This document shows positions 20,565 to 60,987 of a stretch of DNA of 64,000 nt, in pieces. Within the stretch, counting starts at the first letter, position 1. Every line of letters begins with the position of its first letter. The stretch covers positions 1,777 to 65,776 of the forward strand of contig JBHOSK010000001.1 of NCBI GenBank assembly GCA_042584825.1, read 5' to 3'. A program made the translations under genes and the position numbers. The notes below the pieces were generated by a model. The model searched no databases. It was not told the DNA's origin and saw only the letters and a program-made list of their open reading frames with translations. The DNA is from Candidatus Aenigmatarchaeota archaeon (GTDB lineage: Archaea; Aenigmatarchaeota; Aenigmatarchaeia; GW2011-AR5).

Positions 20565-20663
20565 GCTCCTGTCGTCTAGCCCGGCCCATTGCCGTTTTTG
20601 GCTAAGTCGAAAGGATATGAGCCTTTCGAGCTCAGGACGCGGGTTCGAATCCCGCCGGGAGCA
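20565..20663 (+). tRNA. tRNA-Glu (anticodon TTC) with a ~24-nt insertion (candidate non-canonical intron) in the D-arm
   Basis: Acceptor gctcctg/cgggagc; the 5' part gtctagcccggccca matches the archaeal tRNA-Glu D-arm; anticodon stem tgagc/gctca with loop cTTTCga; T-arm gcgggttcgaatcccgc. The 99-nt length needs an extra ~24 nt (ttgccgtttttggctaagtcgaaa) between D-loop and D-stem. Confidence 0.6.
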
Positions 20664-47011: not shown

Positions 47012-47078
47012 ATATTAAAATATCAAACCTTTTATTCATATGCAACGACGATCGGTTATATTATAGGTTATATATAAT

Positions 47079-47162
47079 GCGGGGGTGTCCGAGCGGCCAA
47101 AGGAGCAAGGTTGAGGGCCTTGTGGGTTAGTCCCTACGCGAGTTCGAACCTCGTCTCCCGCA
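47079..47162 (+). tRNA. tRNA-Leu (anticodon GAG)
   Basis: Acceptor gcggggg/ctcccgc, anticodon stem caagg/ccttg with loop ttGAGgg, long variable arm, T-arm gcgagttcgaacctcgt. Confidence 0.75.
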
Positions 47163-47206
47163 AATTCCCCTAATTTTTCATCATGTTTTATATACACAAA
47201 GTTTAA

Positions 47207-47795: not shown

Positions 47796-48065
47796 ATGAA
47801 ACGTGCTCACATGATTGTAAAGGGAAGTGTACAAGGCGTTTCTTTCCGTTCATTTACTCATTCTGTAGCAAATAATCTTAGTATAAATGGTTGGGTTAAA
47901 AATCTTCCACAGGGTGCGGTTGAGATAATCGCCGAAGGTGACGATGATAAAATTGAAAAATTTATTTCAGAAATAAAACAAGGACCATCCGCTTCGCAGG
48001 TTGATGACGTAATAATTGAATGGGAAGATCCAAAAGGCGATAAAGAATTCAAAATATTAATTTAG
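47796..48065 (+). CDS. acyP: Acylphosphatase
   Basis: VKGSVQGVSFRSFT ... GWVKNLPQGAVE motifs; start taken at the internal Met (the ORF-track start at 47691 overlaps the upstream gene). Confidence 0.75.
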   Translation: MKRAHMIVKGSVQGVSFRSFTHSVANNLSINGWVKNLPQGAVEIIAEGDDDKIEKFISEIKQGPSASQVDDVIIEWEDPKGDKEFKILI

Positions 48066-49138
48066 ATAATACCCAATTCTATTGCTTCAATTAACGCAAA
48101 AAGCGCATGCTGATTTCTATCAACCCTAACTGTTCCATCTGTACCAACAAAACCACCTATTGCTTCTTTGGTCCCTTCTGTTATTTGTAAAAGAATAGTA
48201 GCATCCAGACCTTCAATAATAAAATTTTTATAACATTTCTTTCTTTCATTATCACCAGTTATTTCTGCAAGTTCGTAAGCTTGAATAACACCTTCAAGAT
48301 AAACGCCAGTTACAACACCTCTTGAAAAATCATATTTTTCACACAACCCTTCAGGATGGTGTTGTTGTAACATCCAATCATTCATTTCAAATACAAAATC
48401 AGATACCTCTTGGTCTTCTGTAACTTTGTATAATTTATTATACGCTCTAGATTGCCAAGGAACAAACGCCGTGTTCTTGTTACCACGCCAATAATCACGA
48501 TAATGAGGAAACGCTTTTTGTGTTACTTCTAAATATTTTTCATCTCCATTATACTCATACAATGACATTATTGCAAAAAGAGCTTCACCAGGATAGTAAT
48601 CCTGTCCTGTTGACTTATTTGAAAAGAAGTATGTACCTAATGATCCATCATCATTTTGTAAATAAACTATACCGTTTGCAAAACCATTCAAATACGTTTC
48701 TTTTCTTGGATGTTCCATCTCAAGCAACGCCAATATAATAAAAGCCGAATAACCCAACTTTACATTACCTGGTGTGATGTCAAGATAGTAATAATCATAT
48801 TCTGAGTTGTATCCAAAATATTTTTCAAAATATTGAAATCCTTTTTCAGATAGTCTTGTTAATCTTTCATCACCAAGAAAATTTGCACTGTCTGCTATAG
48901 ACCACAAAGAAGCCGCTTCTCTTAATGGATGATGTTCAGCAGGATACAATTCATTTTGTGGATCATATCGATAATAAATAAAATTCTCATCTTGATTATT
49001 TAGAAACCATTCAGCACCAAGTATTATGGATTCTTCATATTTATCTTCTTTTTCATTTTCGTTTATCAAAACGAATGAAGTACCGAAAATTATTATCAAG
49101 ATAATAAGTATAATTTCCATTTTAATTAGTTTTTTCAT
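48062..49138 (-). CDS. Membrane-anchored/secreted protein with predicted alpha/alpha-toroid (terpenoid-cyclase/glycoside-hydrolase-like) fold
   Basis: N-terminal hydrophobic anchor and a Trp/Tyr-rich repetitive helical composition; the assignment is weak. Confidence 0.3.
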   Translation of the reverse strand: MKKLIKMEIILIILIIIFGTSFVLINENEKEDKYEESIILGAEWFLNNQDENFIYYRYDPQNELYPAEHHPLREAASLWSIADSANFLGDERLTRLSEKGFQYFEKYFGYNSEYDYYYLDITPGNVKLGYSAFIILALLEMEHPRKETYLNGFANGIVYLQNDDGSLGTYFFSNKSTGQDYYPGEALFAIMSLYEYNGDEKYLEVTQKAFPHYRDYWRGNKNTAFVPWQSRAYNKLYKVTEDQEVSDFVFEMNDWMLQQHHPEGLCEKYDFSRGVVTGVYLEGVIQAYELAEITGDNERKKCYKNFIIEGLDATILLQITEGTKEAIGGFVGTDGTVRVDRNQHALFALIEAIELGII

Positions 49139-49363
49139 TATAAATCACACATTCGATACCTTTTTAAATATTAAACTTCTATTAATCTTGTTCTATGAGA
49201 CAAGTAATGATGATTCTTGTTTAGAACTGGATAATAAATTTTACTATGGCGGGTAAAAGTTAGATGTTTTATTCTAATCTATATCTGTCATTGTAAAGAC
49301 ACTACAACTCCTGGCTTTTTTCCGGTTGTAGTGAAAATAATGAAGACGTGATAAAAATATTAT

Positions 49364-49384
49364 GTCAGATTGAAGCATAGTTAG
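49364..49384 (+). promoter_or_regulatory. 5' strand of the 16S pre-rRNA processing stem
   Basis: gtcagattgaagcatagttag is the reverse complement (with one short bulge) of 51237..51265 downstream of the 16S. Confidence 0.6.
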
Positions 49385-49431: not shown

Positions 49432-51144
<1,713 letters not shown>

Positions 51145-51236
51145 ATTTTTTTATTCAATTTTTCTCATCGGAGTAAAAATTGAAAAATACGACACGTGTG
51201 CAATAAGCTAATTGACTTCCGTCAATTAGCGGATCA

Positions 51237-51265
51237 CTAAATAACTATGCTTCAATGAAACTGAC
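51237..51265 (+). promoter_or_regulatory. 3' strand of the 16S pre-rRNA processing stem
   Basis: ctaaataactatgcttcaatgaaactgac pairs with 49364..49384; a perfect 10-bp hairpin gctaattgac-ttcc-gtcaattagc at 51207..51230 lies just upstream. Confidence 0.6.
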
Positions 51266-51331
51266 GTACTATTTTTTATTTTTCACGTCTTTTCTTTTCA
51301 TTTTTAAATAAACTAGACAAACTTAGGTATT

Positions 51332-51838
51332 ATGAGTAAACTCAAATCTTATCGTTCTCCTAAAGTAGAAGTTAAAGAAAGCCTTTTAGGAAATAAAGGT
51401 ATTTTCGCAAAAGAAGATATTAAGAAAGGGGAGATCGTTTTTATAAAAAATGGTCATATAGTGAATTTTGAAGAAGCAAAAAGATATAATGAAAATCTTG
51501 GAGATTTATACGCGCTTCAAATAAATGATGACTTTTTCTTAACACCAACCAACGAAGAAGAAGTTGAAAATACTGTAATATTTGTTAATCATTCATGCAA
51601 CCCAAATTTAGGTCCTGAAGGACAAATAACTTTTGTAGCTTTGAGAGACATAAAATCAGGAGAAGAGCTATGTTACGATTATTCAACATGTCATACTCAC
51701 GAATTCCAATTTGAATGCAGATGCGGTTCAAAAAGCTGTAGGAAAATGATTACAGGAAATGATTGGAAAATAAAAAAATTACAAGACAACTATGGAAACA
51801 ATTTTTCTAGTTACATAATTAGGAAAATTAAAAGTTAG
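51332..51838 (+). CDS. SET-domain protein-lysine methyltransferase
   Basis: NHSCNPN, ELCYDY and post-SET CxCxxxxC (CRCGSKSC) motifs. Confidence 0.75.
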   Translation: MSKLKSYRSPKVEVKESLLGNKGIFAKEDIKKGEIVFIKNGHIVNFEEAKRYNENLGDLYALQINDDFFLTPTNEEEVENTVIFVNHSCNPNLGPEGQITFVALRDIKSGEELCYDYSTCHTHEFQFECRCGSKSCRKMITGNDWKIKKLQDNYGNNFSSYIIRKIKS

Positions 51839-51844
51839 AACAAC

Positions 51845-52159
51845 TTACAACACAACATCATCTTTAGGATTAAATTCAGGAGAACAAATCATAAACCATT
51901 TCATCTTTCCAACAATGTTATACGGTGTATTCTTTGGGATAAAAATTACATCTTCTTTACTAACAACATTTTCTTCATCATTAATAACGAATTTACCTTC
52001 ACCTTCAACAATAAAATAAACTCTATCTTCATTAATACATTTTATTTTCCCATGATCTCCATCTATCTCTATTAGAGCTGCACTAAAATCAGAATTGATT
52101 TTATATTCATCTATTTTCATTGGTCCTCTTTCTTTTCTATCCCCTTTCTTTACTATCAT
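51845..52159 (-). CDS. Cupin-domain protein
   Basis: About 104 aa with the two-His/Glu cupin_2-like beta-barrel pattern (DHGKIKCINEDRVYFIVEGEGKF). Confidence 0.5.
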   Translation of the reverse strand: MIVKKGDRKERGPMKIDEYKINSDFSAALIEIDGDHGKIKCINEDRVYFIVEGEGKFVINDEENVVSKEDVIFIPKNTPYNIVGKMKWFMICSPEFNPKDDVVL

Positions 52160-52190
52160 AAATTCAATTAGAATTAATTTTATTTAAAAA

Positions 52191-53642
52191 TTACATATCC
52201 ATCCATTTTGGTCCAAACTTATTTTTTTTCTTATCACGTTTTGAATGATATGATCCACCACCAGTATATGCAGGATTTGATGAAGAGTATGTTTGTTCAC
52301 CACCGTATGTCAATCCTTCTGGAACATCAACTTTACCTTTATACCCCTGATCAGTTTCTGATGTTTTAATTTTCGTTGTCTCGGGTTTCCACAATTTGAA
52401 TAATTGTTTATCAAATTCCAAAAAAGCCTTTACCACGTGTTTAATATTAGCCGGCTTAAATCCCGTTTGAAAGCTCCACAAAACCTTTCTTTCTTTTGTA
52501 TCAATTGCATAAAGGTTTGCATCACCACCACCAAAATATAAAACACCGTTCACAATCAACGGCGATGATATTATAATATCACCAGTATCAAATTTCCATA
52601 CAAGTTTTCCATTTTCACCTATACAATACATAGAACCGTCAATAGACGCAACATATATCTTATTGTCATGGAAAATGGGTGTGTTGGTTATTGGACCATC
52701 AGCTTCGAACTTCCAGTTAAGCTTACCATCATAAGTTACAGAGTAAACATGCCTGTCAAAAGAAGAAAAATAAATATTTTTATTATCTAATAGCCCATGA
52801 CTACCAGTCATACCATCTGTTATAAATTTCCATTTAATTTCTCCATTAAGATCAGTACAATAAAAATTATTGTCACGCGAACCAAAATAAACAAAACCGT
52901 TTTCTGTTTTTGGACTTTTTTTATGTGATCGGTCTCTAAAATTCCATATTTCATTACCACGTTCATCAGCAATGACAGGAGAACCAAACCCACCAACAAA
53001 ATTTCCAGCAATAACTTCCCATTTCTTTGCCCCGTCAGGAGACAAACAATAGAATTTTTTATCAAAAGAACCAAAGTAAATATCATTATTTACAACAGCA
53101 GGAGAATTAACAATAGCATCACCAGTAATGAATTCCCATTTTTTCTCACCGCCCGTAGACAAACAATAAAATTTTTTGTCACCAGAACCAAAATATACTC
53201 TATCTTCAACAACACAGGGTGATGAAACTATTCTGTGACCAGTTTTGAATTTCCATAATAACTTCCCTTCAAGTGTCAATGCGTATAGAAAACCATCATA
53301 AGAACCAAAATATACAACACCATCGTGAATAACAGCAGATGAAAATATTACATCCCCAGCTATAAACTTCCACAACTCCTTTCCTGTTTCAGCAGAAAGT
53401 GCATAAAAGTTCTTGTTGCATGCGCCAAAATAAATCACGCCATTATGATAAATAGGAGTAGCCCAAATATTACCGCCTTGCGGCATATCATATGAATTAT
53501 CAAAAGTAGAAAAATCGTGTTTTGGAATTTCTTCCTTCACCCTTTCAATTGCATAATATTTTGTTTCCTCTTCTGGGCTTGGTTGTTCTTCCTTTTGCCT
53601 ACTATCCCTATACCCATCCATAATTATCACATATCCATCCAT
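52191..53642 (-). CDS. PQQ-repeat beta-propeller protein (paralogue 2) with conserved basic Gly/Ser/Tyr-rich C-terminal tail
   Basis: Eight or more repeats of the type LWKFxTG..I.SSP.I.....YFGS.D..FYAL; no N-terminal signal peptide; C-terminal 50 aa nearly identical to the upstream paralogue. Confidence 0.7.
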   Translation of the reverse strand: MDGYVIIMDGYRDSRQKEEQPSPEEETKYYAIERVKEEIPKHDFSTFDNSYDMPQGGNIWATPIYHNGVIYFGACNKNFYALSAETGKELWKFIAGDVIFSSAVIHDGVVYFGSYDGFLYALTLEGKLLWKFKTGHRIVSSPCVVEDRVYFGSGDKKFYCLSTGGEKKWEFITGDAIVNSPAVVNNDIYFGSFDKKFYCLSPDGAKKWEVIAGNFVGGFGSPVIADERGNEIWNFRDRSHKKSPKTENGFVYFGSRDNNFYCTDLNGEIKWKFITDGMTGSHGLLDNKNIYFSSFDRHVYSVTYDGKLNWKFEADGPITNTPIFHDNKIYVASIDGSMYCIGENGKLVWKFDTGDIIISSPLIVNGVLYFGGGDANLYAIDTKERKVLWSFQTGFKPANIKHVVKAFLEFDKQLFKLWKPETTKIKTSETDQGYKGKVDVPEGLTYGGEQTYSSSNPAYTGGGSYHSKRDKKKNKFGPKWMDM

Positions 53643-55057
53643 TTTGGACCAAATTTATTTTTCTTCTTATCACGCTTTGAGTGATATGATCCACCACCAG
53701 TGTATGCAGGATTCGATGATGAATATGTTCGTTCACCACCATATGTCAATCCTTCTGGAACATCAACTTTACCTTTGTATCCACGTTGAGACGCGTCTAC
53801 AGAACCAGAAGCACCACGCGTTTCTGGCTTCCAAACCTTGAATATTTTTTTATCAAACTCTGTTATAACATTAATATTTCTTTTTACATTTGATTGAAAC
53901 CCCTGACCAGTTTGAAATGTCCATAAAACATCACGTGTATCCATATCAAGAGCATATAGAAAAGTATCCATCGATCCAAAGATAATCATATTTTTATGTA
54001 TTATTGGTGAGGAACCGACAATACCACCAGTGTTAAACTTCCACAATGTTTCGCCCTCAGTTGAAACAGCATAAAAATTCTTGTCAAAGGAACCAAAGTA
54101 AACAACGTTATTATGAATAAACGGAGACGATATTATAGGCCCACCCGATTCAAATTTCCATCTAAAATCACCATTAAGTGTTAATGCATACAGATGTCTG
54201 TCAAGTGAACCAAAATACACAGAACCATTAGAAGCAAAAGGCGCAGAAAGAGGCGCACCATCAAACATCTTTTTCCATAACAACTTTCCATCCAATGACA
54301 CAGAATAGATATTTTTATCTAAAGAACCAAACAGAACAGAACCGTCTTTAACTGTTGGTGATTTTTTATGACATCGTTGTCTAAAAGAAGATATTGAGTT
54401 TTTGTCAACAAGAATTGGACTTGTAAATATATGATTAAAAGCAGGGAATTTCCATTGTAAACTTCCATCATCAGACAAACAATACATATTTTTATCCTTT
54501 GATCCTATGAATATCATATCATTTGCAACCGCAGCTGTTGTATCAAACGGTCCATCTGCTTCAAATTTCCACAACAAATCACCATCAAAAGACAGTGAAT
54601 AGAAAAAATTATCACCACCGCCGATGTAAATTCTATCTCCAACAATTACTGGAGAGTCAACAATTTTATTCCCAGTTTTATATTTCCATAATAATTTTCC
54701 ATTATCAGCAGAAAGACAATATATAAAACCATCAAAGGAAGCAACAAAAAGCTTGTCATCAACAATAGTTGGTGAAGATATTACCACTCCACCAGTTCTA
54801 TATTGCCATTTCATTTTTCCATCAAGATCAAGAGCATAAACATATTGATCACACCCACCAAAATATATTGTATCATTATATAGAAACGCGCTTGAACCAA
54901 TACTACCACTTACTTCTATGTCCCATATATCATCAAAACCAGGTTCTTTTGTTTCTTGTTTCGGATCTTCCTTTCTTTTTATAGCATAATATTTTTCTTC
55001 TTTCTCGTTCAACCCCTTCTCTGATTCATCCGATATATCAGATTTATACCCGTCCAT
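53627..55057 (-). CDS. PQQ-repeat beta-propeller protein (paralogue 1) with the same C-terminal tail
   Basis: Same repeat architecture; ends YKGKVDVPEGLTYGGERTYSSSNPAYTGGGSYHSKRDKKKNKFGPKWMDM; its stop region overlaps the start of paralogue 2. Confidence 0.7.
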   Translation of the reverse strand: MDGYKSDISDESEKGLNEKEEKYYAIKRKEDPKQETKEPGFDDIWDIEVSGSIGSSAFLYNDTIYFGGCDQYVYALDLDGKMKWQYRTGGVVISSPTIVDDKLFVASFDGFIYCLSADNGKLLWKYKTGNKIVDSPVIVGDRIYIGGGDNFFYSLSFDGDLLWKFEADGPFDTTAAVANDMIFIGSKDKNMYCLSDDGSLQWKFPAFNHIFTSPILVDKNSISSFRQRCHKKSPTVKDGSVLFGSLDKNIYSVSLDGKLLWKKMFDGAPLSAPFASNGSVYFGSLDRHLYALTLNGDFRWKFESGGPIISSPFIHNNVVYFGSFDKNFYAVSTEGETLWKFNTGGIVGSSPIIHKNMIIFGSMDTFLYALDMDTRDVLWTFQTGQGFQSNVKRNINVITEFDKKIFKVWKPETRGASGSVDASQRGYKGKVDVPEGLTYGGERTYSSSNPAYTGGGSYHSKRDKKKNKFGPKWMDM

Positions 55058-55112
55058 ATTTTCAACTTGAAATAGAACCTTTATAAAACTAAACAGTCAA
55101 GAATTGTGTTAT

Positions 55113-55185
55113 GGGCTGATAGATCAATTGGAAGATCGCTACCCTTGCAAGGTAGAGGCTCCGGGTTCGAGTCCCGGTCGGTCCA
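55113..55185 (+). tRNA. tRNA-Ala (anticodon TGC)
   Basis: Acceptor gggctga/tcggtcc, anticodon stem ctacc/ggtag with loop cTTGCaa, T-arm tccgggttcgagtcccgg; sits in the classical archaeal position between 16S and 23S. Confidence 0.8.
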
Positions 55186-55203
55186 TATTTTTTATTCAGT
55201 AAG

Positions 55204-56001
55204 ATGATAAATATGTCACAAGAAAAAATTTTCATTGAAAACCACGGACAAAAACTTGCAGCTGTGATGCACGTACCAGTTGATCCGACAAAGGTCGGCA
55301 TAATACTTGTACACGGATTCACAAGCAGTAAAAGAGAAGAAGCAGGTGATAAGTATGCTCGTCTTGCAGACGCTTTATGTAATAAAGGGTTTCTTGTACT
55401 TCGTTTTGACTTTCGTGGTCATGGTGAAAGTGAAGGCTTATTTGAAGATACTTCTTTATCATCGGAGTCAAGCGATCTAAACAAAATGATTTCATTCTTA
55501 AAAGAAAATGGGATTGAAAAAATTGGTGTTGTTGGATGCAGTTTAGGAGGATTTGTAACTTTGTTAACCTACCACAACAACATGGATTGTGTTGTGCTTT
55601 GGTACCCTGCTATATTTCTGAAAGAGTCTGACATATTCAAAGAAATGAAGTCTCGTGAAAAAGAACTGGAAAAAGACGGCAAATTATTTGCCAGACAACT
55701 TGAAGGAAAGAAATATTACATAGGTAAACAAATGTGGGAAGAGTGGAATAGCATAGATGTTTTTTCAAAAGTAAAAGATGTAAAATGTCCTATATTATTT
55801 TTAACAGGAAATAAAGATGTGAACGTTGATCCCAGCCAATCAGAAAAAGCTTTTGCTGTTGCTTCTGAGCCCAAAAGGCTCGAAATAATAGATGGTGCAG
55901 CACATGCATGGAGAGACGAAGATTGGAATTTAGTTGAAGGCTATTTCTTGCACGCAACGAAACTTACAGTTGACTGGTTTGTAGAGTGGCTAAAACCCTA
56001 A
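55204..56001 (+). CDS. Alpha/beta-hydrolase (esterase/dienelactone-hydrolase-like)
   Basis: GCSLGG nucleophile elbow, HGFTSS oxyanion region, His near the C-terminus. Confidence 0.7.
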   Translation: MINMSQEKIFIENHGQKLAAVMHVPVDPTKVGIILVHGFTSSKREEAGDKYARLADALCNKGFLVLRFDFRGHGESEGLFEDTSLSSESSDLNKMISFLKENGIEKIGVVGCSLGGFVTLLTYHNNMDCVVLWYPAIFLKESDIFKEMKSREKELEKDGKLFARQLEGKKYYIGKQMWEEWNSIDVFSKVKDVKCPILFLTGNKDVNVDPSQSEKAFAVASEPKRLEIIDGAAHAWRDEDWNLVEGYFLHATKLTVDWFVEWLKP

Positions 56002-56010
56002 CATAAGAAA

Positions 56011-56095
56011 AACCTTTTAATACGGTCGAGCATGAATTCTTAGTATGAAGTTTATGATTATAGCAATAACAATTGCATCTATATTATTAATTAGT
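56011..56095 (+). repeat. Direct repeat copy 1 (upstream region plus signal-peptide coding of the Kazal lipoprotein genes)
   Basis: aaaaccttttaatacggtcgagcatgaattctta..atgaagtttatgattatagcaata recurs at 56771..56855 with 2-3 mismatches. Confidence 0.7.
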
Positions 56096-56770
56096 GGATG
56101 CACTACACAACCCAATAATGATGAAAACAGTGCAGCAAGATCAGCAATGGAAATTGGATGGTTATTTGATATTGATTCTGGTGAAAAATACTTTGTAAGT
56201 ATTGGTTATTATCAAAACATAATGGACAAGGTTTATACACAAGAAGAAATAATTCAACTTAGTGGTAGCTTAGAACCAACAATAACTCACACACAAGAAG
56301 AATGGCTTGCAAGTTGTGAAGAATTACAATTACAAATGTACGTAAGAGAATGTTCAGAAGAAGGATGGCAAACAGAATGTTCTGGAAGTAATGAAAAACC
56401 ATGTCTAAGCTCTTTTGAATATTGGCAAAGCATGTGCGAATCAGCCAATGCTCGTGCAAGAAGTTGCATGGATCATCAATATTGGTATTATGAACCAATC
56501 TTAATTCAATACATGGAAGAAAACGGAATCGAAGGTGAAATAATTGATGCTGTTGTGGCTTATTTCCCAATAACTGGTACAGGTTTACATCCAGGAACTT
56601 ATGGCGATAACAGAATATATTGTCAAGAAGACCAAAGAGGTGTAGGTGCTTGTACAATGGATTACACACCAGTTTGTGGTTTCTCAGATGACGGGTCAGA
56701 AACCTATTCTAATGGCTGTGTTGCATGCACCAACGAGAACGTAAATTACTACATTCCAGGCGAATGCTGA
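56045..56770 (+). CDS. Lipoprotein with C-terminal Kazal-type inhibitor-like domain (paralogue 1)
   Basis: Signal peptide with ISGC lipobox; C-terminal C...YTPVCGFSDDGSETYSNGCVAC...C matches the Kazal Cys/PVCG/TY.N.C spacing. Confidence 0.55.
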   Translation: MKFMIIAITIASILLISGCTTQPNNDENSAARSAMEIGWLFDIDSGEKYFVSIGYYQNIMDKVYTQEEIIQLSGSLEPTITHTQEEWLASCEELQLQMYVRECSEEGWQTECSGSNEKPCLSSFEYWQSMCESANARARSCMDHQYWYYEPILIQYMEENGIEGEIIDAVVAYFPITGTGLHPGTYGDNRIYCQEDQRGVGACTMDYTPVCGFSDDGSETYSNGCVACTNENVNYYIPGEC

Positions 56771-56855
56771 AAACCTTTTAATACGGTCGAGCATGAATTC
56801 TTATCATGAAGTTTATGATTATAGCAATAGCAATTGCGTCTATATTAATAATAAG
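56771..56855 (+). repeat. Direct repeat copy 2 (tandem duplication junction of the Kazal lipoprotein genes)
   Basis: See copy 1. Confidence 0.7.
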
Positions 56856-57207
56856 TGGATGTACTACACAACCCAACAACAATGAAAACAACAGCCCAAC
56901 AAATAACTGCAATTACGATGATCCACACAGGAACTATATAAGCAAAGATCCGGAACGATGTGCAGTAATGGATTTTGGATGTATGCCACCTTCTACAGGA
57001 TTTGACGATGAATGTGGTTGTGGTTGTGAAACCATCGGTGATGAAATACAATGTACAGAAAAAGAGATGGATCCAGCATGTATAGCTATATATGAACCTG
57101 TTTGTGGCTACACAGGCGTTGGTCACAGCTATAATTATCCTAATGAATGTGTAGCATGCAAGATGTCAGCTGTTTTCTATTACATCCCAGGCGAATGCCC
57201 AGAATAA
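56806..57207 (+). CDS. Lipoprotein with C-terminal Kazal-type inhibitor-like domain (paralogue 2)
   Basis: Near-identical signal peptide MKFMIIAIAIASILIISGC; C-terminal C.AIYEPVCGYTGVGHSYNYPNECVAC...C. Confidence 0.55.
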   Translation: MKFMIIAIAIASILIISGCTTQPNNNENNSPTNNCNYDDPHRNYISKDPERCAVMDFGCMPPSTGFDDECGCGCETIGDEIQCTEKEMDPACIAIYEPVCGYTGVGHSYNYPNECVACKMSAVFYYIPGECPE

Positions 57208-57550
57208 ATAAGCTTTTAAACTTTTCTCATTAAATAATGTAAGTTGTGGGGGTCAGAAATCCTTGCATTTCTAAGAAAATAGCGTATGAAAATACGTTGA
57301 TACAGTTAATAGGTAAATACCGAAGCTGTTCAGAGTCAGCTTCGTAATGTGGCAGGTTGCGTTGTTGTGGTAGAGGTTGAGTGAATATGAAAACAAAAAA
57401 AATCATTTCATCTTTTTCTGAGCAGATTTCAGTATGTACAATGAGCAAGAGATGTTAATACCGTCTATGTTCAAGACAGCTCACAAGCAAACGCTTGTTG
57501 GGTGGTGTGCAATAGGTTAATTGTATTAATCAAACAATATAACCGATGAA

Positions 57551-57569
57551 GCAATCACAAGTACCAGAA
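57551..57569 (+). promoter_or_regulatory. 5' strand of the 23S pre-rRNA processing stem
   Basis: gcaatcacaagtaccagaa is the exact reverse complement of 60590..60608. Confidence 0.65.
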
Positions 57570-57571
57570 CA

Positions 57572-60565
57572 AAGATAGCTAGCTCCCACGCTATTTGGTG
57601 GATGGATTGGTTCAAGTAGAGATGAAGGTCGTGGTAAGCTGCGATAAGCCTGGGCGAGACGCATGCAGTCTTTGAACTCAGGATTGCCGAATGGGACATC
57701 CCATTTACTTGCAATCGGTGCAAACTGGTTGTAAGGTCGTACGCGGAGAATTGAAACATCTTAGTAACCGCAGGAAGAGAAAGCAAAAGCGATGCCGTCA
57801 GTAAAGGCGATTGAAATCGGCATAGAACAAACCGAATCTGCCTTGAGAGAGAGCAGAGATGTGGGGTTTGGACTTGGGTTGTGCCTAATCAGCCAGTCTG
57901 AAGTGTGCTGGAAAGCACCGCGATAAAGGGTGATAGCCCCGTAAGAGAAAGTTGAAAGGTATATACCAAGTATCCAGAGTATGGCTCATCTGATTTTGAG
58001 TCAGAATACAGGAGACATCTACTCCTAATTCTAAACATAACTTGAGTCCGATAGTGTATTAGTACTGTGAGGGAAATCTGAAAAGTAACCTTAATAGGTG
58101 CTGAAAAGAACCTGAAACCATGTAGCTAGAGTAGGACGGGTAAGGCCATCGCAAGATGGAAGAATCCGTTGTCCGTTTCGAAAAACGGGGCAGGGAGTTT
58201 ATCTTACTGGCAAGGTTAATTTATTGTAGCCATAGGGAAACCGAGTGTGAAAACGCGTTAAGTCAGTAGGGTAAGACCCGAAACCTGACGATCTATTCCT
58301 GGGCAAGATGAAGGCGTGGGAAACCGCGCTCGAGGTCTGCCACTGGTGTTGGTACTAACCACTCAGGTGACCTGGGAATAGGGGTGAAAAGCCAATCGAG
58401 TCGGGTAATAGCTGGTTCCTCCTGAAATGTATCGGAGTACAGCCTCATCTGTATTTGTTAGTGGAGTAGAGCACTGATTAGGTAACCAAGGGGAGAAATC
58501 CCCAGTTATCTTGTCAAACTCCAAACACATTAACATTTGGATGGGAGTGAGGGCGTCTGGAGTAAGTTTGACGTCCGAGAGGGAAACAACCCAGACCGTA
58601 GTTAAGGCCCCCAAATATCGATTAAGTGTAATTGAAAGTTGTCTTGAACCACAGACAATGGGAAGGTTGGCTTAGAAGCAGCCATCCTTTAAACAACGCG
58701 TAACAGCGGACCCATCAAGGTTTGTGGCGCTGAAAATGGACGGGACTAAATCGATTGCCGATACTACGGAGTTATACATCTGTATAACTGGTAAGGAGGC
58801 GTACTGTTAGGGCAGAAGCATCTGCGTAAGTGGGTGTGGACCTTTCAGTAATGAAGATCCTGCCGGGAGTAGCATGCAAGTTGGGTGAGAATCCCAACCA
58901 CCTTAGGGGCCAGGGTTCCCCAGTAAATCTTATATGCTGGGGGTTAGTCGGTCCTAACCGAATCCTTAAGAAGGCATTCGGGAAAGGGAATGGCGTTAAT
59001 ATTCGTCAACTATTTAGTAACTATCTTGTCTGAGACATTTCAGGATATCTTGACTAGGATCATCGTCCTAGTTAAGCATTGAAACATGGGGAGTGGCGTA
59101 ATGTCGAGAACCGTGTGAATGTGCGAATAGCTTGGTGTATGCTGAGTTCAGGAGATTCCTGGAATCCGTGAAAATCAGACAAGTAACTATGCTAAATATC
59201 CGTACTCAGAACCGACACAGGTGCCCCTCGCTGAGTAGGCGAAGGTGTTCGGAATAATCAACCTTAGGGAATTCGGCAAGTTAGCCATGTATCTTAGGTA
59301 CAAGTGGTGCCAGATTCGAGAGAATCTGGTCGCAGTGACAAGGGAAATCCGACTGTTTAACAAAAACGTAGTTGGCTGCTAAGCAGAAATGCCTTGTATA
59401 GCCAATGAGTCGTGGCCACTAGTGGTGTGTGAAAGCCGATTCCAATCGGAAGAAGCCCCACTGTAGGCCGGCCCTAACTCTGAGGGTCTTAAGGTAGCGT
59501 AATCCCTTGCCGATTAATTGTCGGCCCGCATGATAGATTCACGAGATTTCCATTGTCCCAAGGTTGACTCCGGCGAAACTATTGTTCTGGTGATTAGGCC
59601 AGAGACCTCTAGTGGGAAGAGTAGACCCCGTGGAGCTTTACTGCAGGCTGTTGTTGCGGTAGAGATGTGAATGTATAGCGTAGGTAGGAGCTTCGGCACC
59701 AATGTAACACTACCCTTTCATGTCTCTACTGCTCATACGGAGCAAATTCGTAGACATCGACAGTTAGGCAGTTTGACTGGGGCGGTACGCCCTTGAAAGA
59801 ATATCAAGGGCCCTCTAAGCTCAACTTATCAGGGTCAGAAATCCTGAGTTAAGTGTAAGGATAAAAGTTGGGTTGATTGGACTTCTACAAGCATGATGTC
59901 CAACCGCGAAAGCGTGACCTAGCGATACGCAGTTTGGCCTAGATGGCTGGCTGTGACATGAGAAAAGCTACCCCGGGGATAATGGTGTCGTAGCGGGTGA
60001 GAGTTCTTATCCGCGGCTACGAGACTAGTGTCTATTCCTCACTAAAGAGAATGACTAGACAAACATAGGTAAACGTAGCTATAGCGTTGATAGTGTAAAG
60101 TCGATTTTCCTAGCACATCAAGTGCGATGCGGAGAACAAATCGACCCCGCGTGTTGCGGCGTCGCTGTCGGCTCGCCCTCTCCTGGCTGTGCAGCAGCAG
60201 CCAAGGGTACTGGAGTCCACAGGTTAAAAGGGCACGTTAGCTGGGTTCAGAACGGCGTGAGCCAGTTTGGTCTATATCTGCTAGAGGTGTTGCTGTCTGA
60301 GGGGAAGGAAGGATAAGTACGAAAGGAACATCCTTCCGTGGCTTCTGGTTTATCTGTTGTCTGACAAGGCAGTGCAGAGTAGCTACGCCACGTTTGATAA
60401 GTGCTGAAAGCATCTAAGCACGAAGCAGCTCTCGAAAAGAGACAGCTTGGCACCGACAAGACGATCGGTTATGGGACAGGGATGTAAGTATCGAGCTTCG
60501 GCGAGATATTAAGTCCACTGTACCCTACGCCAATGCTAGCCTTTAAAGCGCAGAAGTTGCGGCTT
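57572..60565 (+). rRNA. 23S ribosomal RNA (ends approximate)
   Basis: GGTAAGCTGCGATAAGCCTGGG ... CCGAATGGGACATCCC 5'-domain signatures; sarcin-ricin-loop and PTC-region sequences further on; bracketed by a processing stem. Confidence 0.85.
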
Positions 60566-60572
60566 TTGCGAA

Positions 60573-60608
60573 GACCAATTAATTGGTCTTTCTGGTACTT
60601 GTGATTGC
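60573..60608 (+). promoter_or_regulatory. Perfect palindromic hairpin plus 3' strand of the 23S processing stem, followed by a T-rich tract
   Basis: aagaccaattaattggtctt hairpin, then ttctggtacttgtgattgc pairing with 57551..57569, then ttttcttttttaaag. Confidence 0.6.
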
Positions 60609-60987
60609 TGATTTTCTTTTTTAAAGTTTTACTGACTAGCTCTTGCTATGTCAGATAGGATGAATATAAAATTGCGCAGACGCGAATTACATAGAACAAG
60701 CCCTTCAATGAGCATACCATTTTCAGATCATCCTGAAATAGAACCAGAATATCAAAGACAAACAGTTACTGTTGTACGTCGTGGGAGAAATCTTTATGTT
60801 GGTAAAAACAGATTAAGAGGAAAAACAGAAATATATGCCCTATCTTTTTTTCAAGAAGATTTATAATTAATTTTATTTACTTCTTAATAATGAAAATAAA
60901 CTAAAAGGTAAATTTGAAGACTGCACTAATATTTCAGATTTGTACCAAAACACACTATATAAACAAAGTCATATTAAATAACAGGTC

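What the first reader, a model, noticed from the sequence alone, without database searches (positions are those of the whole stretch)
51145..57571. rRNA locus split by ~6.4 kb of protein-coding genes: 16S, then a SET protein, cupin, two PQQ propellers, tRNA-Ala, a hydrolase and two Kazal lipoproteins, then 23S
In most archaea the 16S-23S spacer is a few hundred nt containing only tRNA-Ala. Here tRNA-Ala(TGC) is still present, but it is 4 kb downstream of the 16S and 2.4 kb upstream of the 23S. The intervening genes run on both strands and include two tandem paralogue pairs (PQQ propellers; Kazal lipoproteins) with DNA-level repeats, indicating recent local duplication. Each rRNA has its own processing stem, so they can mature independently.

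The inserted genes share a theme of protein-protein interaction and surface or protease-inhibitor functions and may constitute an uncharacterised accessory module.
Basis: partly seen in the sequence, partly recalled or inferred. Interest (0 to 1): 0.7.

Follow-up and report, generated by a model that had tools for sequence, protein, structure and literature searches.

The report
Split rRNA operon in DPANN archaeon
The 16S and 23S ribosomal RNA genes of this small Aenigmatarchaeota archaeon really are separated by 6.4 kb holding seven ordinary protein genes and a stranded tRNA-Ala, but "unlinked" rRNA genes like this are already known to be common in this group, so this is a clear new example and not a new kind of system.

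Summary
The 16S lies at 49432-51145, tRNA-Ala(TGC) at 55112-55186 and the 23S at 57574-60544, all on the + strand. Seven ORFs lie between them: SET, cupin, two PQQ-like propellers, an alpha/beta hydrolase and two Kazal-like lipoproteins. Each rRNA has its own flanking processing stem.

The contig comes from an NCBI "Candidatus Aenigmatarchaeota archaeon" MAG. By the published criterion (spacer >1500 bp) this is an unlinked rRNA arrangement. That arrangement is already reported as prevalent in DPANN archaea, with both linked and unlinked organisation described within Aenigmatarchaeota.

A scan for related 16S genes found the same layout in independent metagenome contigs: 16S, genes, tRNA-Ala, genes, 23S, all co-oriented. 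The intervening genes there are entirely different (H+-pyrophosphatase, NUDIX, unknown proteins). Homologues of the SET, hydrolase and PQQ genes elsewhere are never near rRNA genes or near each other. The "accessory module" idea is therefore not supported.

The PQQ pair is an old duplication (48% identity), and its DNA repeat reflects a constrained C-terminal tail. Only the 5' ends of the Kazal genes look recently homogenised.

Most likely there are three separate RNA transcription units in an operon that eroded in place. This is inferred from motifs and is not shown. Verdict: a new member of a known kind, of modest interest.

The parts
49161..49170 (+). Candidate archaeal TATA box (TTTTTAAATA) for the 16S transcription unit
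   Evidence: Motif scan. The same 10-mer recurs 22 nt upstream of the SET ATG and upstream of the cupin gene. This is inferred and not shown; TATA-like motifs occur at 2.6 per kb in this AT-rich window.
49342..49383 (+). 5' arm of the 16S processing stem
   Evidence: Pairs with 51242-51292 over about 40 bp with small bulges, including a perfect 15-bp block at 49369-49383/51242-51256.
49432..51145 (+). 16S rRNA gene, full length, with a 43-nt insert and a 216-nt insert
   Evidence: Rfam RF01959, 1399 bits, model positions 1-1478.
51242..51292 (+). 3' arm of the 16S processing stem, overlapping and followed by oligo-T runs (51272, 51279, 51301) that could act as a terminator
   Evidence: The terminator role is inferred.
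51332..51838 (+). SET-domain protein (168 aa) with its own TATA-like box at 51301-51310
   Evidence: Pfam SET E = 2.2e-18. Motif. The nearest homologues are bacterial, at 51% identity or less.
51845..52159 (-). Small cupin protein (104 aa)
   Evidence: Pfam Cupin_2, 28.4 bits against a cut-off of 27.2.
52191..53621 (-). PQQ-like beta-propeller protein 1. The likely start is Met8 of the 483-aa ORF, giving 476 aa.
   Evidence: Pfam PF13570 E = 4e-61. The alignment to its paralogue begins at Met8. NCBI annotates a 476-aa product (P0149).
53627..55057 (-). PQQ-like beta-propeller protein 2 (476 aa)
   Evidence: Pfam PF13570 E = 1.7e-68. 48% identical to protein 1.
55080..55087 (.). Palindromic TATA-like box (TTTATAAA) between the divergent PQQ2 gene and tRNA-Ala
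   Evidence: It lies 22 nt from the PQQ2 ATG and 24 nt from the tRNA 5' end. The promoter role is inferred.
55112..55186 (+). tRNA-Ala(TGC), followed by a T6 run at 55188
   Evidence: ARAGORN and Rfam (66 bits). G3:U70 is present. T6 run.
55204..56001 (+). Alpha/beta-fold hydrolase (265 aa; NCBI start 9 nt later, 262 aa)
   Evidence: Pfam Hydrolase_4 E = 8e-21. P0001 is 100% identical and named alpha/beta hydrolase from Candidatus Aenigmatarchaeota archaeon.
56045..56770 (+). Lipoprotein with a C-terminal Kazal-like domain (241 aa)
   Evidence: Pfam Kazal_1, 25.1 bits against a cut-off of 21. Lipobox LLISGC. PDB hits are to PSTI and ovomucoid.
56806..57207 (+). Shorter paralogous lipoprotein with a Kazal-like C-terminus (133 aa)
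   Evidence: Kazal_1, 17.8 bits, below the cut-off. The C-terminal domain is 50% identical to that of the longer paralogue, and the signal peptide matches at 21 of 23 residues.
57208..57573 (+). ORF-free 23S leader with a candidate TATA-like box at 57214-57221
   Evidence: The promoter assignment is weak and inferred.
57550..57569 (+). 5' arm of the 23S processing stem
   Evidence: 20 nt, 100% complementary to 60590-60609 (I7).
57574..60544 (+). 23S rRNA gene, full length
   Evidence: Rfam RF02540, 2397 bits, model positions 1-2987.
60590..60622 (+). 3' arm of the 23S processing stem (60590-60609), followed by a T6 run at 60617

Best explanation
This is an rRNA operon of the 16S-tRNA-Ala-23S type that has been pulled apart in place. 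It belongs to a low-GC DPANN archaeon, a Candidatus Aenigmatarchaeota MAG. The three RNA genes keep their ancestral order and orientation. Ordinary, functionally unrelated chromosomal genes now occupy both halves of the former internal spacer: four genes (4.0 kb) between the 16S and tRNA-Ala, and three genes (2.4 kb) between tRNA-Ala and the 23S.

Most likely the 16S, tRNA-Ala and 23S are now three separate transcription units. Each is preceded by a TATA-like box and followed by an oligo-T tract. Each rRNA precursor folds its own flanking stem, so the two subunit RNAs mature independently. The protein genes appear to be expressed from their own promoters, several apparently as leaderless mRNAs. 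They have no special link to the rRNAs.

Shown: the gene positions, the stems, the protein families, native base composition for five of the seven genes, recurrence of the same layout with different genes in related contigs, and the absence of any conserved module. Inferred: the promoters, the terminators, separate transcription, and the evolutionary direction (gene insertion into a once-compact operon).
For: Positions and integrity of the RNA genes.

Independent stems.

Barrier to a shared transcript: 3.2 kb of minus-strand genes (cupin, PQQ1, PQQ2) lie between the 16S and tRNA-Ala.

Motifs: TATA-like boxes sit at canonical distances before the 16S, SET, cupin, PQQ2/tRNA-Ala and both Kazal genes. 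Oligo-T runs follow the 16S stem, the tRNA and the 23S stem.

Source organism: proteins 100% identical to window ORFs are annotated by NCBI as Candidatus Aenigmatarchaeota archaeon, on a 143,942-bp contig.

Literature: unlinked rRNA genes are prevalent in DPANN. Aenigmatarchaeota show both linked and unlinked organisation. Genome LHD6 has a phosphatase gene between its 23S and 16S (PMC8997704). The >1500 bp criterion is from bioRxiv 10.1101/705046.

Related contigs with the same architecture but different genes:
- L115: 16S, H+-PPase on the opposite strand, tRNA-Ala at +2219, a 200-aa ORF, then 23S. Spacer 3,149 nt.
- L157: 16S then H+-PPase, from a different metagenome.
- L162 and L148: tRNA-Ala at +949; spacer 3,993 nt in L162.
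- L099: spacer 1,569 nt.
- L166: tRNA-Ala at +1500.
- L154: a NUDIX gene lies before the 23S.
Their tRNA-Ala genes share the window's unusual D-arm.

Survey: of 16 informative loci whose 16S is at least 75% identical, 11 exceed 1,500 nt or show no 23S within 2.1-7.4 kb.

Composition: spacer GC is 34.3% against 33.6% for the contig. The tetranucleotide correlation is 0.965, inside the background range of 0.951-0.988.
Against: - No transcript data exist. TATA-like and oligo-T motifs are frequent in a 34% GC genome (2.6 TATA-like sites per kb), so the three-unit model rests on motif positions and gene orientation.
- The 23S promoter candidate (57214) is weak. tRNA-Ala, the hydrolase, both Kazal genes and the 23S are all on the + strand with short gaps, so some read-through into the 23S cannot be excluded.
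- No canonical bulge-helix-bulge motif was seen in either stem, so the processing route is unknown.
- No close relative was available. The nearest protein homologues are 43-61% identical and the nearest 16S about 84-87% over partial alignments, so the direction and timing of the insertions are inferred.
- The taxonomy of the related metagenome contigs is unknown.
- The window comes from a MAG, and read-level support could not be checked.
Confidence: 0.8

Rival explanations
1. Assembly artefact. The contig is a chimera or a mis-join at conserved rRNA sequence, and the 16S and 23S are not really 6.4 kb apart in one genome.
For: The window comes from a metagenome-assembled genome, and rRNA genes are known weak points of metagenome assembly (stated in PMC8997704). 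The exact proteins were found on only one contig in the protein collection. No independent assembly of this organism was found: a tRNA-Ala 32-mer gave 0 hits in JGI metagenomes.
Against: - The 5' and 3' flanks of each rRNA pair with each other, so each rRNA sits in its own cognate flanks.
- The spacer and the regions on both sides share GC content and tetranucleotide signature.
- There are no Ns.
- The spacer is unique sequence, not a collapsed repeat.
- The same architecture recurs in at least five independent contigs from different metagenomes.
Confidence: 0.04
2. One reading: the seven genes form an uncharacterised accessory module (protein-protein interaction, surface or protease-inhibitor functions) that is functionally tied to its position inside the rRNA locus.
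For: The genes are compactly arranged. There are two paralogue pairs. The two Kazal-like lipoproteins are plausibly extracellular inhibitors.
Against: - The genes lie on both strands, with separate TATA-like boxes.
- 80 SET loci, 3 hydrolase loci and 5 PQQ loci show no rRNA within 10 kb. None carries another of the seven families, apart from distant (21-24% identical) alpha/beta-hydrolase matches beside SET in 3 bacterial loci.
- Hydrolase and PQQ homologues sit among housekeeping genes such as RNase P subunits, the proteasome, deoxyhypusine synthase and Sec61-beta.
- Related split rRNA loci carry unrelated genes (H+-PPase, NUDIX, unknowns), and none of the seven families.
- The PQQ proteins lack signal peptides.
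- There are no PADLOC hits.
Confidence: 0.05
3. Partial co-transcription survives. A transcript starting at the tRNA-Ala promoter runs through the hydrolase and both Kazal genes into the 23S, so that mRNAs are embedded in a pre-rRNA and the 23S is released by cleavage at its stem.
For: All five genes are on the + strand, with gaps of 17, 43, 35 and 366 nt. The only TATA-like candidate upstream of the 23S is weak (57214). There is no T5+ tract between the hydrolase start and 57413.
Against: A T6 tract directly follows the tRNA (55188). Each Kazal gene carries an identical 34-nt upstream element with a TATA-like box 23 nt before its ATG. A T5 tract lies at 57413, upstream of the 23S stem. In the relatives, the genes in this interval lie on either strand (L162).
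Confidence: 0.1
4. Part of the spacer is a recently acquired foreign segment that landed next to tRNA-Ala, a common integration target.
For: The two Kazal-like genes are strong tetranucleotide outliers (z = -5.1 and -4.1), whereas the other genes are typical. The SET protein's nearest homologues are bacterial.
Against: - There is no integrase or transposase.
- There is no partial tRNA-Ala copy or att-like repeat.
- GC3 of the Kazal genes (0.22-0.28) is normal for this genome.
- The cysteine-rich, unusual amino-acid composition could explain the k-mer deviation.
- The hydrolase next to the tRNA is compositionally typical.
Confidence: 0.1

Closest known systems
Unlinked 16S/23S rRNA genes (Brewer et al., bioRxiv 10.1101/705046; Juttner & Ferreira-Cerca 2022, PMC8997704), as in Thermoplasma, Nanoarchaeota and other DPANN, and most Asgard archaea
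   Same: The 16S-23S distance is above 1500 bp, with protein-coding genes in between. The organism is a small-genome, probably symbiotic DPANN archaeon, which is the group where this arrangement is reported as prevalent. Each rRNA is presumably transcribed on its own.
   Different: Most described unlinked pairs are far apart. 682 of 778 exceed 6 kb and the mean is about 410 kb. Here the genes are only 6.4 kb apart and still in operon order and orientation, with tRNA-Ala in the middle and well-formed processing stems on both rRNAs. PMC8997704 mentions degeneration of the processing stem in unlinked organisms.
Candidatus Aenigmarchaeota archaeon LHD6 rRNA locus (supplement of PMC8997704)
   Same: Same phylum. 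A protein-coding gene (a membrane-associated phospholipid phosphatase) lies between the 16S and the 23S.
   Different: That spacer is about 1.1 kb, holds one gene, and is noted as 'no tRNA Ala?'. Here the spacer is 6.4 kb, holds seven genes, and retains tRNA-Ala.
Canonical euryarchaeal-type rRNA operon (16S-tRNA-Ala-23S-5S, one transcript)
   Same: The gene order, the orientation, the tRNA-Ala(TGC) and the helix-forming flanks around each rRNA.
   Different: The spacer is about 20 times longer, contains genes on the opposite strand, and no 5S lies within 3.4 kb downstream. A single precursor is implausible.
Ca. Prometheoarchaeum syntrophicum (Asgard) unlinked rRNA genes
   Same: The rRNA genes are unlinked, and a tRNA-Ala persists as a trace of the ancestral operon.
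   Different: There the tRNA-Ala stays next to the 23S. Here it is separated from both rRNAs.

Membership tests
Unlinked rRNA genes (operational definition of Brewer et al.) | Distance between the closest 16S and 23S edges is greater than 1500 bp | tested here: met
   The spacer is 51146-57573, or 6,428 nt.
Unlinked rRNA genes | 16S and 23S are transcriptionally separate | not testable with these tools
   Inferred only, from 3.2 kb of antisense genes in between, TATA-like boxes before each RNA gene and oligo-T tracts after each. No transcript data are available.
Canonical linked archaeal rRNA operon (16S-tRNA-Ala-23S-5S) | Order and co-orientation 16S, then tRNA-Ala, then 23S | tested here: met
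   All three are on the + strand and in order.
Canonical linked archaeal rRNA operon | Short internal spacer (a few hundred nt) without protein-coding genes | tested here: not met
   The spacer is 6,428 nt and holds seven ORFs with family support.
Canonical linked archaeal rRNA operon | 5S rRNA downstream of the 23S | tested here: not met
   There is no 5S match anywhere in the window, which includes 3.4 kb downstream of the 23S.
Archaeal pre-rRNA processing stems | Inverted repeats flanking each mature rRNA that form a long helix | tested here: met
   The 16S stem is about 40 bp. The 23S stem is a perfect 20 bp.
Archaeal pre-rRNA processing stems | Canonical bulge-helix-bulge motif (two 3-nt bulges on opposite strands, 4 bp apart) for the splicing endonuclease | tested here: inconclusive
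   The 23S stem has no bulges. The 16S stem has a single 4-nt bulge or an internal loop. Relaxed motifs were not modelled.
Conserved functional gene module | The same genes co-occur in other genomes | tested here: not met
   92 loci carrying a SET, hydrolase, PQQ or upstream-neighbour (358-aa) homologue were examined. None holds a second family of the set, apart from distant (21-24% identical) alpha/beta-hydrolase matches next to SET in 3 Chloroflexota loci. Cupin and Kazal homologues were not traced.
Conserved functional gene module | Association with rRNA genes in other genomes | tested here: not met
   No 16S or 23S lies within 10 kb in those 92 loci. None of the seven families appears in the split spacers of the relatives.
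tRNA-targeted integrated element | Integrase or recombinase gene, and a direct repeat of the tRNA 3' end | tested here: not met
   There is no such Pfam or NCBIfam hit. No partial tRNA-Ala copy is found beyond chance matches of 15 nt or less, all outside the spacer.
Kazal-type inhibitor domain (the two lipoproteins) | Six-cysteine pattern C-x(n)-C-x7-C-x(n)-Y-x3-C-x2-C-x(n)-C with a PVCG core | tested here: met
   The pattern was read directly in both C-termini. Pfam Kazal_1 scores 25.1 bits (above the cut-off) and 17.8 bits (below it). The PDB hits are Kazal inhibitors. Inhibitory activity was not tested.

The most novel reading that the evidence does not exclude
In this DPANN lineage, rRNA operons may become unlinked through stepwise, in-place expansion of both halves of the internal spacer, and not through one rRNA gene moving elsewhere. 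Ordinary genes would be inserted or turned over on either side of tRNA-Ala while order, orientation and the processing stems are kept. The window (6.4 kb) and the related contigs would then form a graded series of intermediates: 0.2-0.3 kb, 0.8, 1.3, 1.6, 3.1 and 4.0 kb, then more than 6 kb. That series could be used to reconstruct how, and in what order, co-transcription is lost.
Probability: 0.45. Interest if true: 0.45.

Novelty: new member of a known kind. Interest (0 to 1): 0.3.

Why it matters
[quoted passage not shown] Why so many DPANN and Asgard archaea have given this up, and how, is debated, and the question bears on arguments about archaeal phylogeny and eukaryote origins (PMC8997704).

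This locus adds no new principle. It is a clean intermediate. The genes are separated by definition, yet they remain adjacent and in order, with the spacer tRNA stranded in the middle and intact stems on both rRNAs. Together with the related contigs found here, it suggests that unlinking can proceed by local gene insertion.

There is also a practical consequence. 16S-ITS-23S long-amplicon methods and rRNA-operon-based binning would miss or mis-handle such organisms.

Tried and rejected
1. Exact look-ups of the SET protein and of the NCBI hydrolase sequence in the contig index returned nothing. The source contig could not be re-fetched or checked in an independent assembly.
It returned only homologues at 51% identity or less, mostly bacterial, and no close relative.
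3. A tRNA-Ala 32-mer scan of JGI metagenomes gave 0 hits.
4. I tried synteny anchoring through the gene just upstream of the 16S (358 aa). Homologues are plentiful, but the nearest (61% and 58% identity) show no rRNA next to them.
5. The sigma-70 promoter and intrinsic-terminator scan gave counts at chance level, and it does not apply to archaea. I replaced it with a simple TATA/oligo-T motif scan.
6. RNAduplex on 250-nt flanks did not discriminate. Mismatched control pairs of flanks scored similarly in this AT-rich DNA. The stem evidence therefore rests on the contiguous perfect helices.
7. One Rfam call on 16 loci failed internally and was repeated on 8 loci.
8. Gene conversion as the explanation for the PQQ DNA repeat was considered and rejected in favour of amino-acid constraint.
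9. A defence-system reading was checked and rejected.
10. The published version of Brewer et al. was not held, so the preprint was used.

Full report
**What is there**

Rfam finds a complete archaeal 16S rRNA at 49432-51145 and a complete archaeal 23S rRNA at 57574-60544, both on the + strand. ARAGORN and Rfam both find tRNA-Ala(TGC) at 55112-55186 on the + strand. The 16S-23S spacer is therefore 6,428 nt. A permissive Rfam scan of the spacer finds no other RNA family, and the window holds no 5S rRNA.

- SET domain protein, 51332-51838 +, E = 2e-18.
- A small cupin, 51845-52159 -, just above the Pfam cut-off.
- Two PQQ-like eight-bladed propellers, 52191-53621 - and 53627-55057 -.
- An alpha/beta hydrolase, 55204-56001 +.
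- Two lipoproteins, 56045-56770 + and 56806-57207 +. Their C-termini carry the six-cysteine Kazal pattern. Their weak PDB matches are almost all Kazal inhibitors.

NCBIfam adds nothing more specific, and PADLOC finds nothing.

**Processing stems**

The 23S is bracketed by a perfect 20-nt inverted repeat, 57550-57569 with 60590-60609. The 16S is bracketed by a helix of about 40 bp, 49342-49383 with 51242-51292, which includes a perfect 15-bp block. These helices are far beyond chance expectation. A cruder duplex-energy comparison on 250-nt flanks did not discriminate in this AT-rich DNA, so I rely on the contiguous helices. Neither stem shows a canonical bulge-helix-bulge motif. The claim that each rRNA has its own stem is confirmed, but the cleavage chemistry remains open.

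**Source organism**

Three window proteins have 100% identical entries that NCBI annotates as Candidatus Aenigmatarchaeota archaeon, on a 143,942-bp contig with locus-tag prefix ACFLQN. The surrounding genes (archease, RtcB, a 2-oxoacid dehydrogenase E1 subunit) and the 34% GC content fit a DPANN archaeon.

No close relative is available. The next-best homologues are 43% identical for the hydrolase, 44% for the PQQ protein, 61% for the upstream neighbour and 51% for SET.

**Is it an artefact?**

Reads cannot be checked here. Several observations argue against a mis-join:
- Each rRNA's two flanks pair with each other.
- The spacer's GC content (34.3% against 33.6%) and its tetranucleotide profile (r = 0.965, background 0.951-0.988) match the rest of the contig. 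The region downstream of the 23S also matches.
- There are no Ns.
- The spacer is unique sequence.
- The same layout recurs in independent contigs, described under "Related rRNA loci".

**Is the gene set a module?**

No.
- In 80 loci with SET homologues there is no 16S or 23S within 10 kb, and no PQQ, cupin or Kazal gene. Three bacterial loci carry only a distant (21-24% identical) alpha/beta-hydrolase match next to SET.
- Hydrolase homologues (41-43% identity) sit among RNase P subunits, proteasome, exosome and helicase genes.
- PQQ homologues sit beside deoxyhypusine synthase, Sec61-beta, an AP-endonuclease-fold gene and MraZ. One locus holds two paralogues 4 kb apart.
- None of these loci has rRNA genes or tRNA-Ala nearby.
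- In the window, the genes lie on both strands and most have their own TATA-like box at leaderless-mRNA distance.
- The PQQ proteins have no signal peptide. They share a WKPET motif and a lysine-rich tail with their DPANN homologues, so the "surface" theme applies at most to the two lipoproteins.

**Paralogue pairs**

PQQ1 and PQQ2 are 48% identical. The 162-nt, 90% DNA repeat covers the last 50 or so codons. There the proteins are 100% identical, but only 73% of the codons are identical, against about 57% for identical residues elsewhere in the gene. The tail is also conserved in distant homologues. This points to constraint on an old duplicate and not to a recent duplication.

The Kazal pair differs. 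A non-coding upstream element is identical at 34 of 34 nt, and the signal peptide is nearly identical (DNA 92% over 121 nt). The mature parts are unrelated except for the C-terminal domain, which is 50% identical. Recent conversion or partial duplication of the 5' end is plausible there. The two Kazal genes are also the only compositional outliers in the spacer (z = -5.1 and -4.1). This is unexplained; the cause could be their cysteine-rich composition or a foreign origin.

**Related rRNA loci**

A 16S signature 23-mer retrieved 120 metagenome stretches. I ranked them by similarity to the window's 16S and then located the 23S and tRNA genes. The nearest ones repeat the window's architecture with different genes:
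- L115 (about 84% 16S identity over the aligned parts): 16S, then H+-pyrophosphatase on the opposite strand, tRNA-Ala at +2,219, a 200-aa membrane ORF, then 23S. Spacer 3,149 nt.
- L157, from another metagenome: the same 16S/H+-PPase junction.
- L162 and L148: tRNA-Ala at +949. In L162 three further ORFs precede the 23S, and the spacer is 3,993 nt.
- L099: a 405-aa ORF lies before tRNA-Ala. Spacer 1,569 nt.
- L166: tRNA-Ala at +1,500.
- L154: a NUDIX gene lies between a tRNA and the 23S. Spacer 1,275 nt.

The tRNA-Ala genes of L115, L162 and L148 share the window's unusual D-arm. None of the window's seven protein families occurs in these spacers.

Sixteen loci were informative and had a 16S at least 75% identical to the window's. 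Of these, five have spacers of 1,500 nt or less. Three of the five are compact (195-337 nt, with tRNA-Ala) and two are enlarged (772 and 1,275 nt). Three loci have a co-oriented 23S at 1.6-4.0 kb with tRNA-Ala in between. Eight show no 23S within 2.1-7.4 kb. The taxonomy of these contigs is not known.

**Comparison with the literature**

Brewer et al. define unlinked rRNA genes as those with an ITS above 1,500 bp. They show that such genes are widespread, and that most unlinked pairs are more than 6 kb apart (bioRxiv 10.1101/705046). Juttner and Ferreira-Cerca report a strong prevalence of unlinked 16S-23S genes in DPANN and Asgard archaea. They state that Aenigmatarchaeota include both linked and unlinked organisms. 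They note that tRNA-Ala stays next to the 23S in Prometheoarchaeum (PMC8997704). Their supplement lists an Aenigmatarchaeota genome (LHD6) with a phosphatase gene between the 23S and the 16S. The kind of arrangement is therefore already described, including in this phylum.

**Mechanism**

The best-supported reading is three independent RNA transcription units.
- TATA-like boxes lie before the 16S (49161) and, weakly, before the 23S (57214).
- A palindromic TTTATAAA at 55080-55087 lies 24 nt before tRNA-Ala and 22 nt before the divergent PQQ2 gene.
- Oligo-T tracts follow the 16S stem, the tRNA and the 23S stem.
- The 3.2 kb of minus-strand genes between the 16S and the tRNA make a common 16S-23S precursor implausible.

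All of this is inferred from sequence motifs that are common in AT-rich DNA. Some read-through from tRNA-Ala through the co-oriented hydrolase and Kazal genes into the 23S cannot be excluded.

**Verdict**

It is wrong on the module idea, on recent duplication of the PQQ pair, and on how unusual the arrangement is for this lineage. This is a new, well-preserved instance of a known phenomenon. Its modest added value is that it appears to be an in-place intermediate, and several related contigs show the same pattern.

Noticed in passing
window 50060-50102 and 50768-50983; L162 9124-11791, L148 3986-6533, L174 6257-8589: The 16S gene is 1,714 nt long because of a 43-nt insert and a 216-nt insert in the helix-43 loop. 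The larger insert folds as a rod (z = -3.2) and shows no canonical BHB motif at its base. Related contigs have 16S genes of 2.3-2.7 kb, so large 16S insertions seem typical of this lineage. Whether they are spliced introns or retained expansion segments is unknown.
   Followed up: partly
window 56045-57207: The two Kazal-like lipoprotein genes are strong tetranucleotide outliers relative to the contig (z = -5.1 and -4.1), while the other five spacer genes are typical or nearly so. GC3 is normal. The cause could be their cysteine-rich composition or a foreign origin.
   Followed up: partly
window 52191-55057; alignment A1: The PQQ-like propellers have no signal peptide. They share a conserved WKPET motif and a tyrosine- and lysine-rich C-terminal tail with homologues across DPANN MAGs. 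The last 50 or so residues are 100% identical between the two paralogues. The function of this tail is unknown.
   Followed up: partly
window 48062-49138 (-): The 358-aa protein divergently adjacent to the 16S promoter region has no Pfam or NCBIfam hit. It nevertheless has more than 300 homologues at 45-61% identity, spread across DPANN archaea and CPR/Patescibacteria. It is a widely shared family of unknown function in ultra-small-celled lineages.
   Followed up: partly
window 51332-51838: The nearest homologues of the SET-domain protein in species-representative genomes are bacterial (CPR Levybacteria 51%, then mostly Chloroflexota). Only a few DPANN hits appear, which suggests inter-domain transfer of this gene.
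   Followed up: no
window 55080-55087: A single palindromic TTTATAAA lies 22 nt from the PQQ2 start codon (- strand) and 24 nt from the tRNA-Ala 5' end (+ strand). It could be a shared bidirectional TATA box. A T6/TATA-like tract right after the tRNA may double as the tRNA terminator and the promoter for the hydrolase gene.
   Followed up: no
L115 2833-4842 and L157 379-2397: In two related contigs from different metagenomes, an H+-translocating pyrophosphatase gene lies immediately downstream of the 16S and convergent with it. In L115 it sits inside the 16S-tRNA-Ala gap.
   Followed up: partly
window 20594-20663 and 47078-47163: The two tRNA finders disagree. Rfam alone reports a weak tRNA at 20594-20663 (33 bits). 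ARAGORN alone reports tRNA-Leu(GAG) at 47078-47163.
   Followed up: no
window 60545-64000: No 5S rRNA follows the 23S within 3.4 kb, or anywhere else in the window, so the 5S gene is also detached. A 72-aa ORF (60648-60866) directly after the 23S stem has no family hit.
   Followed up: no
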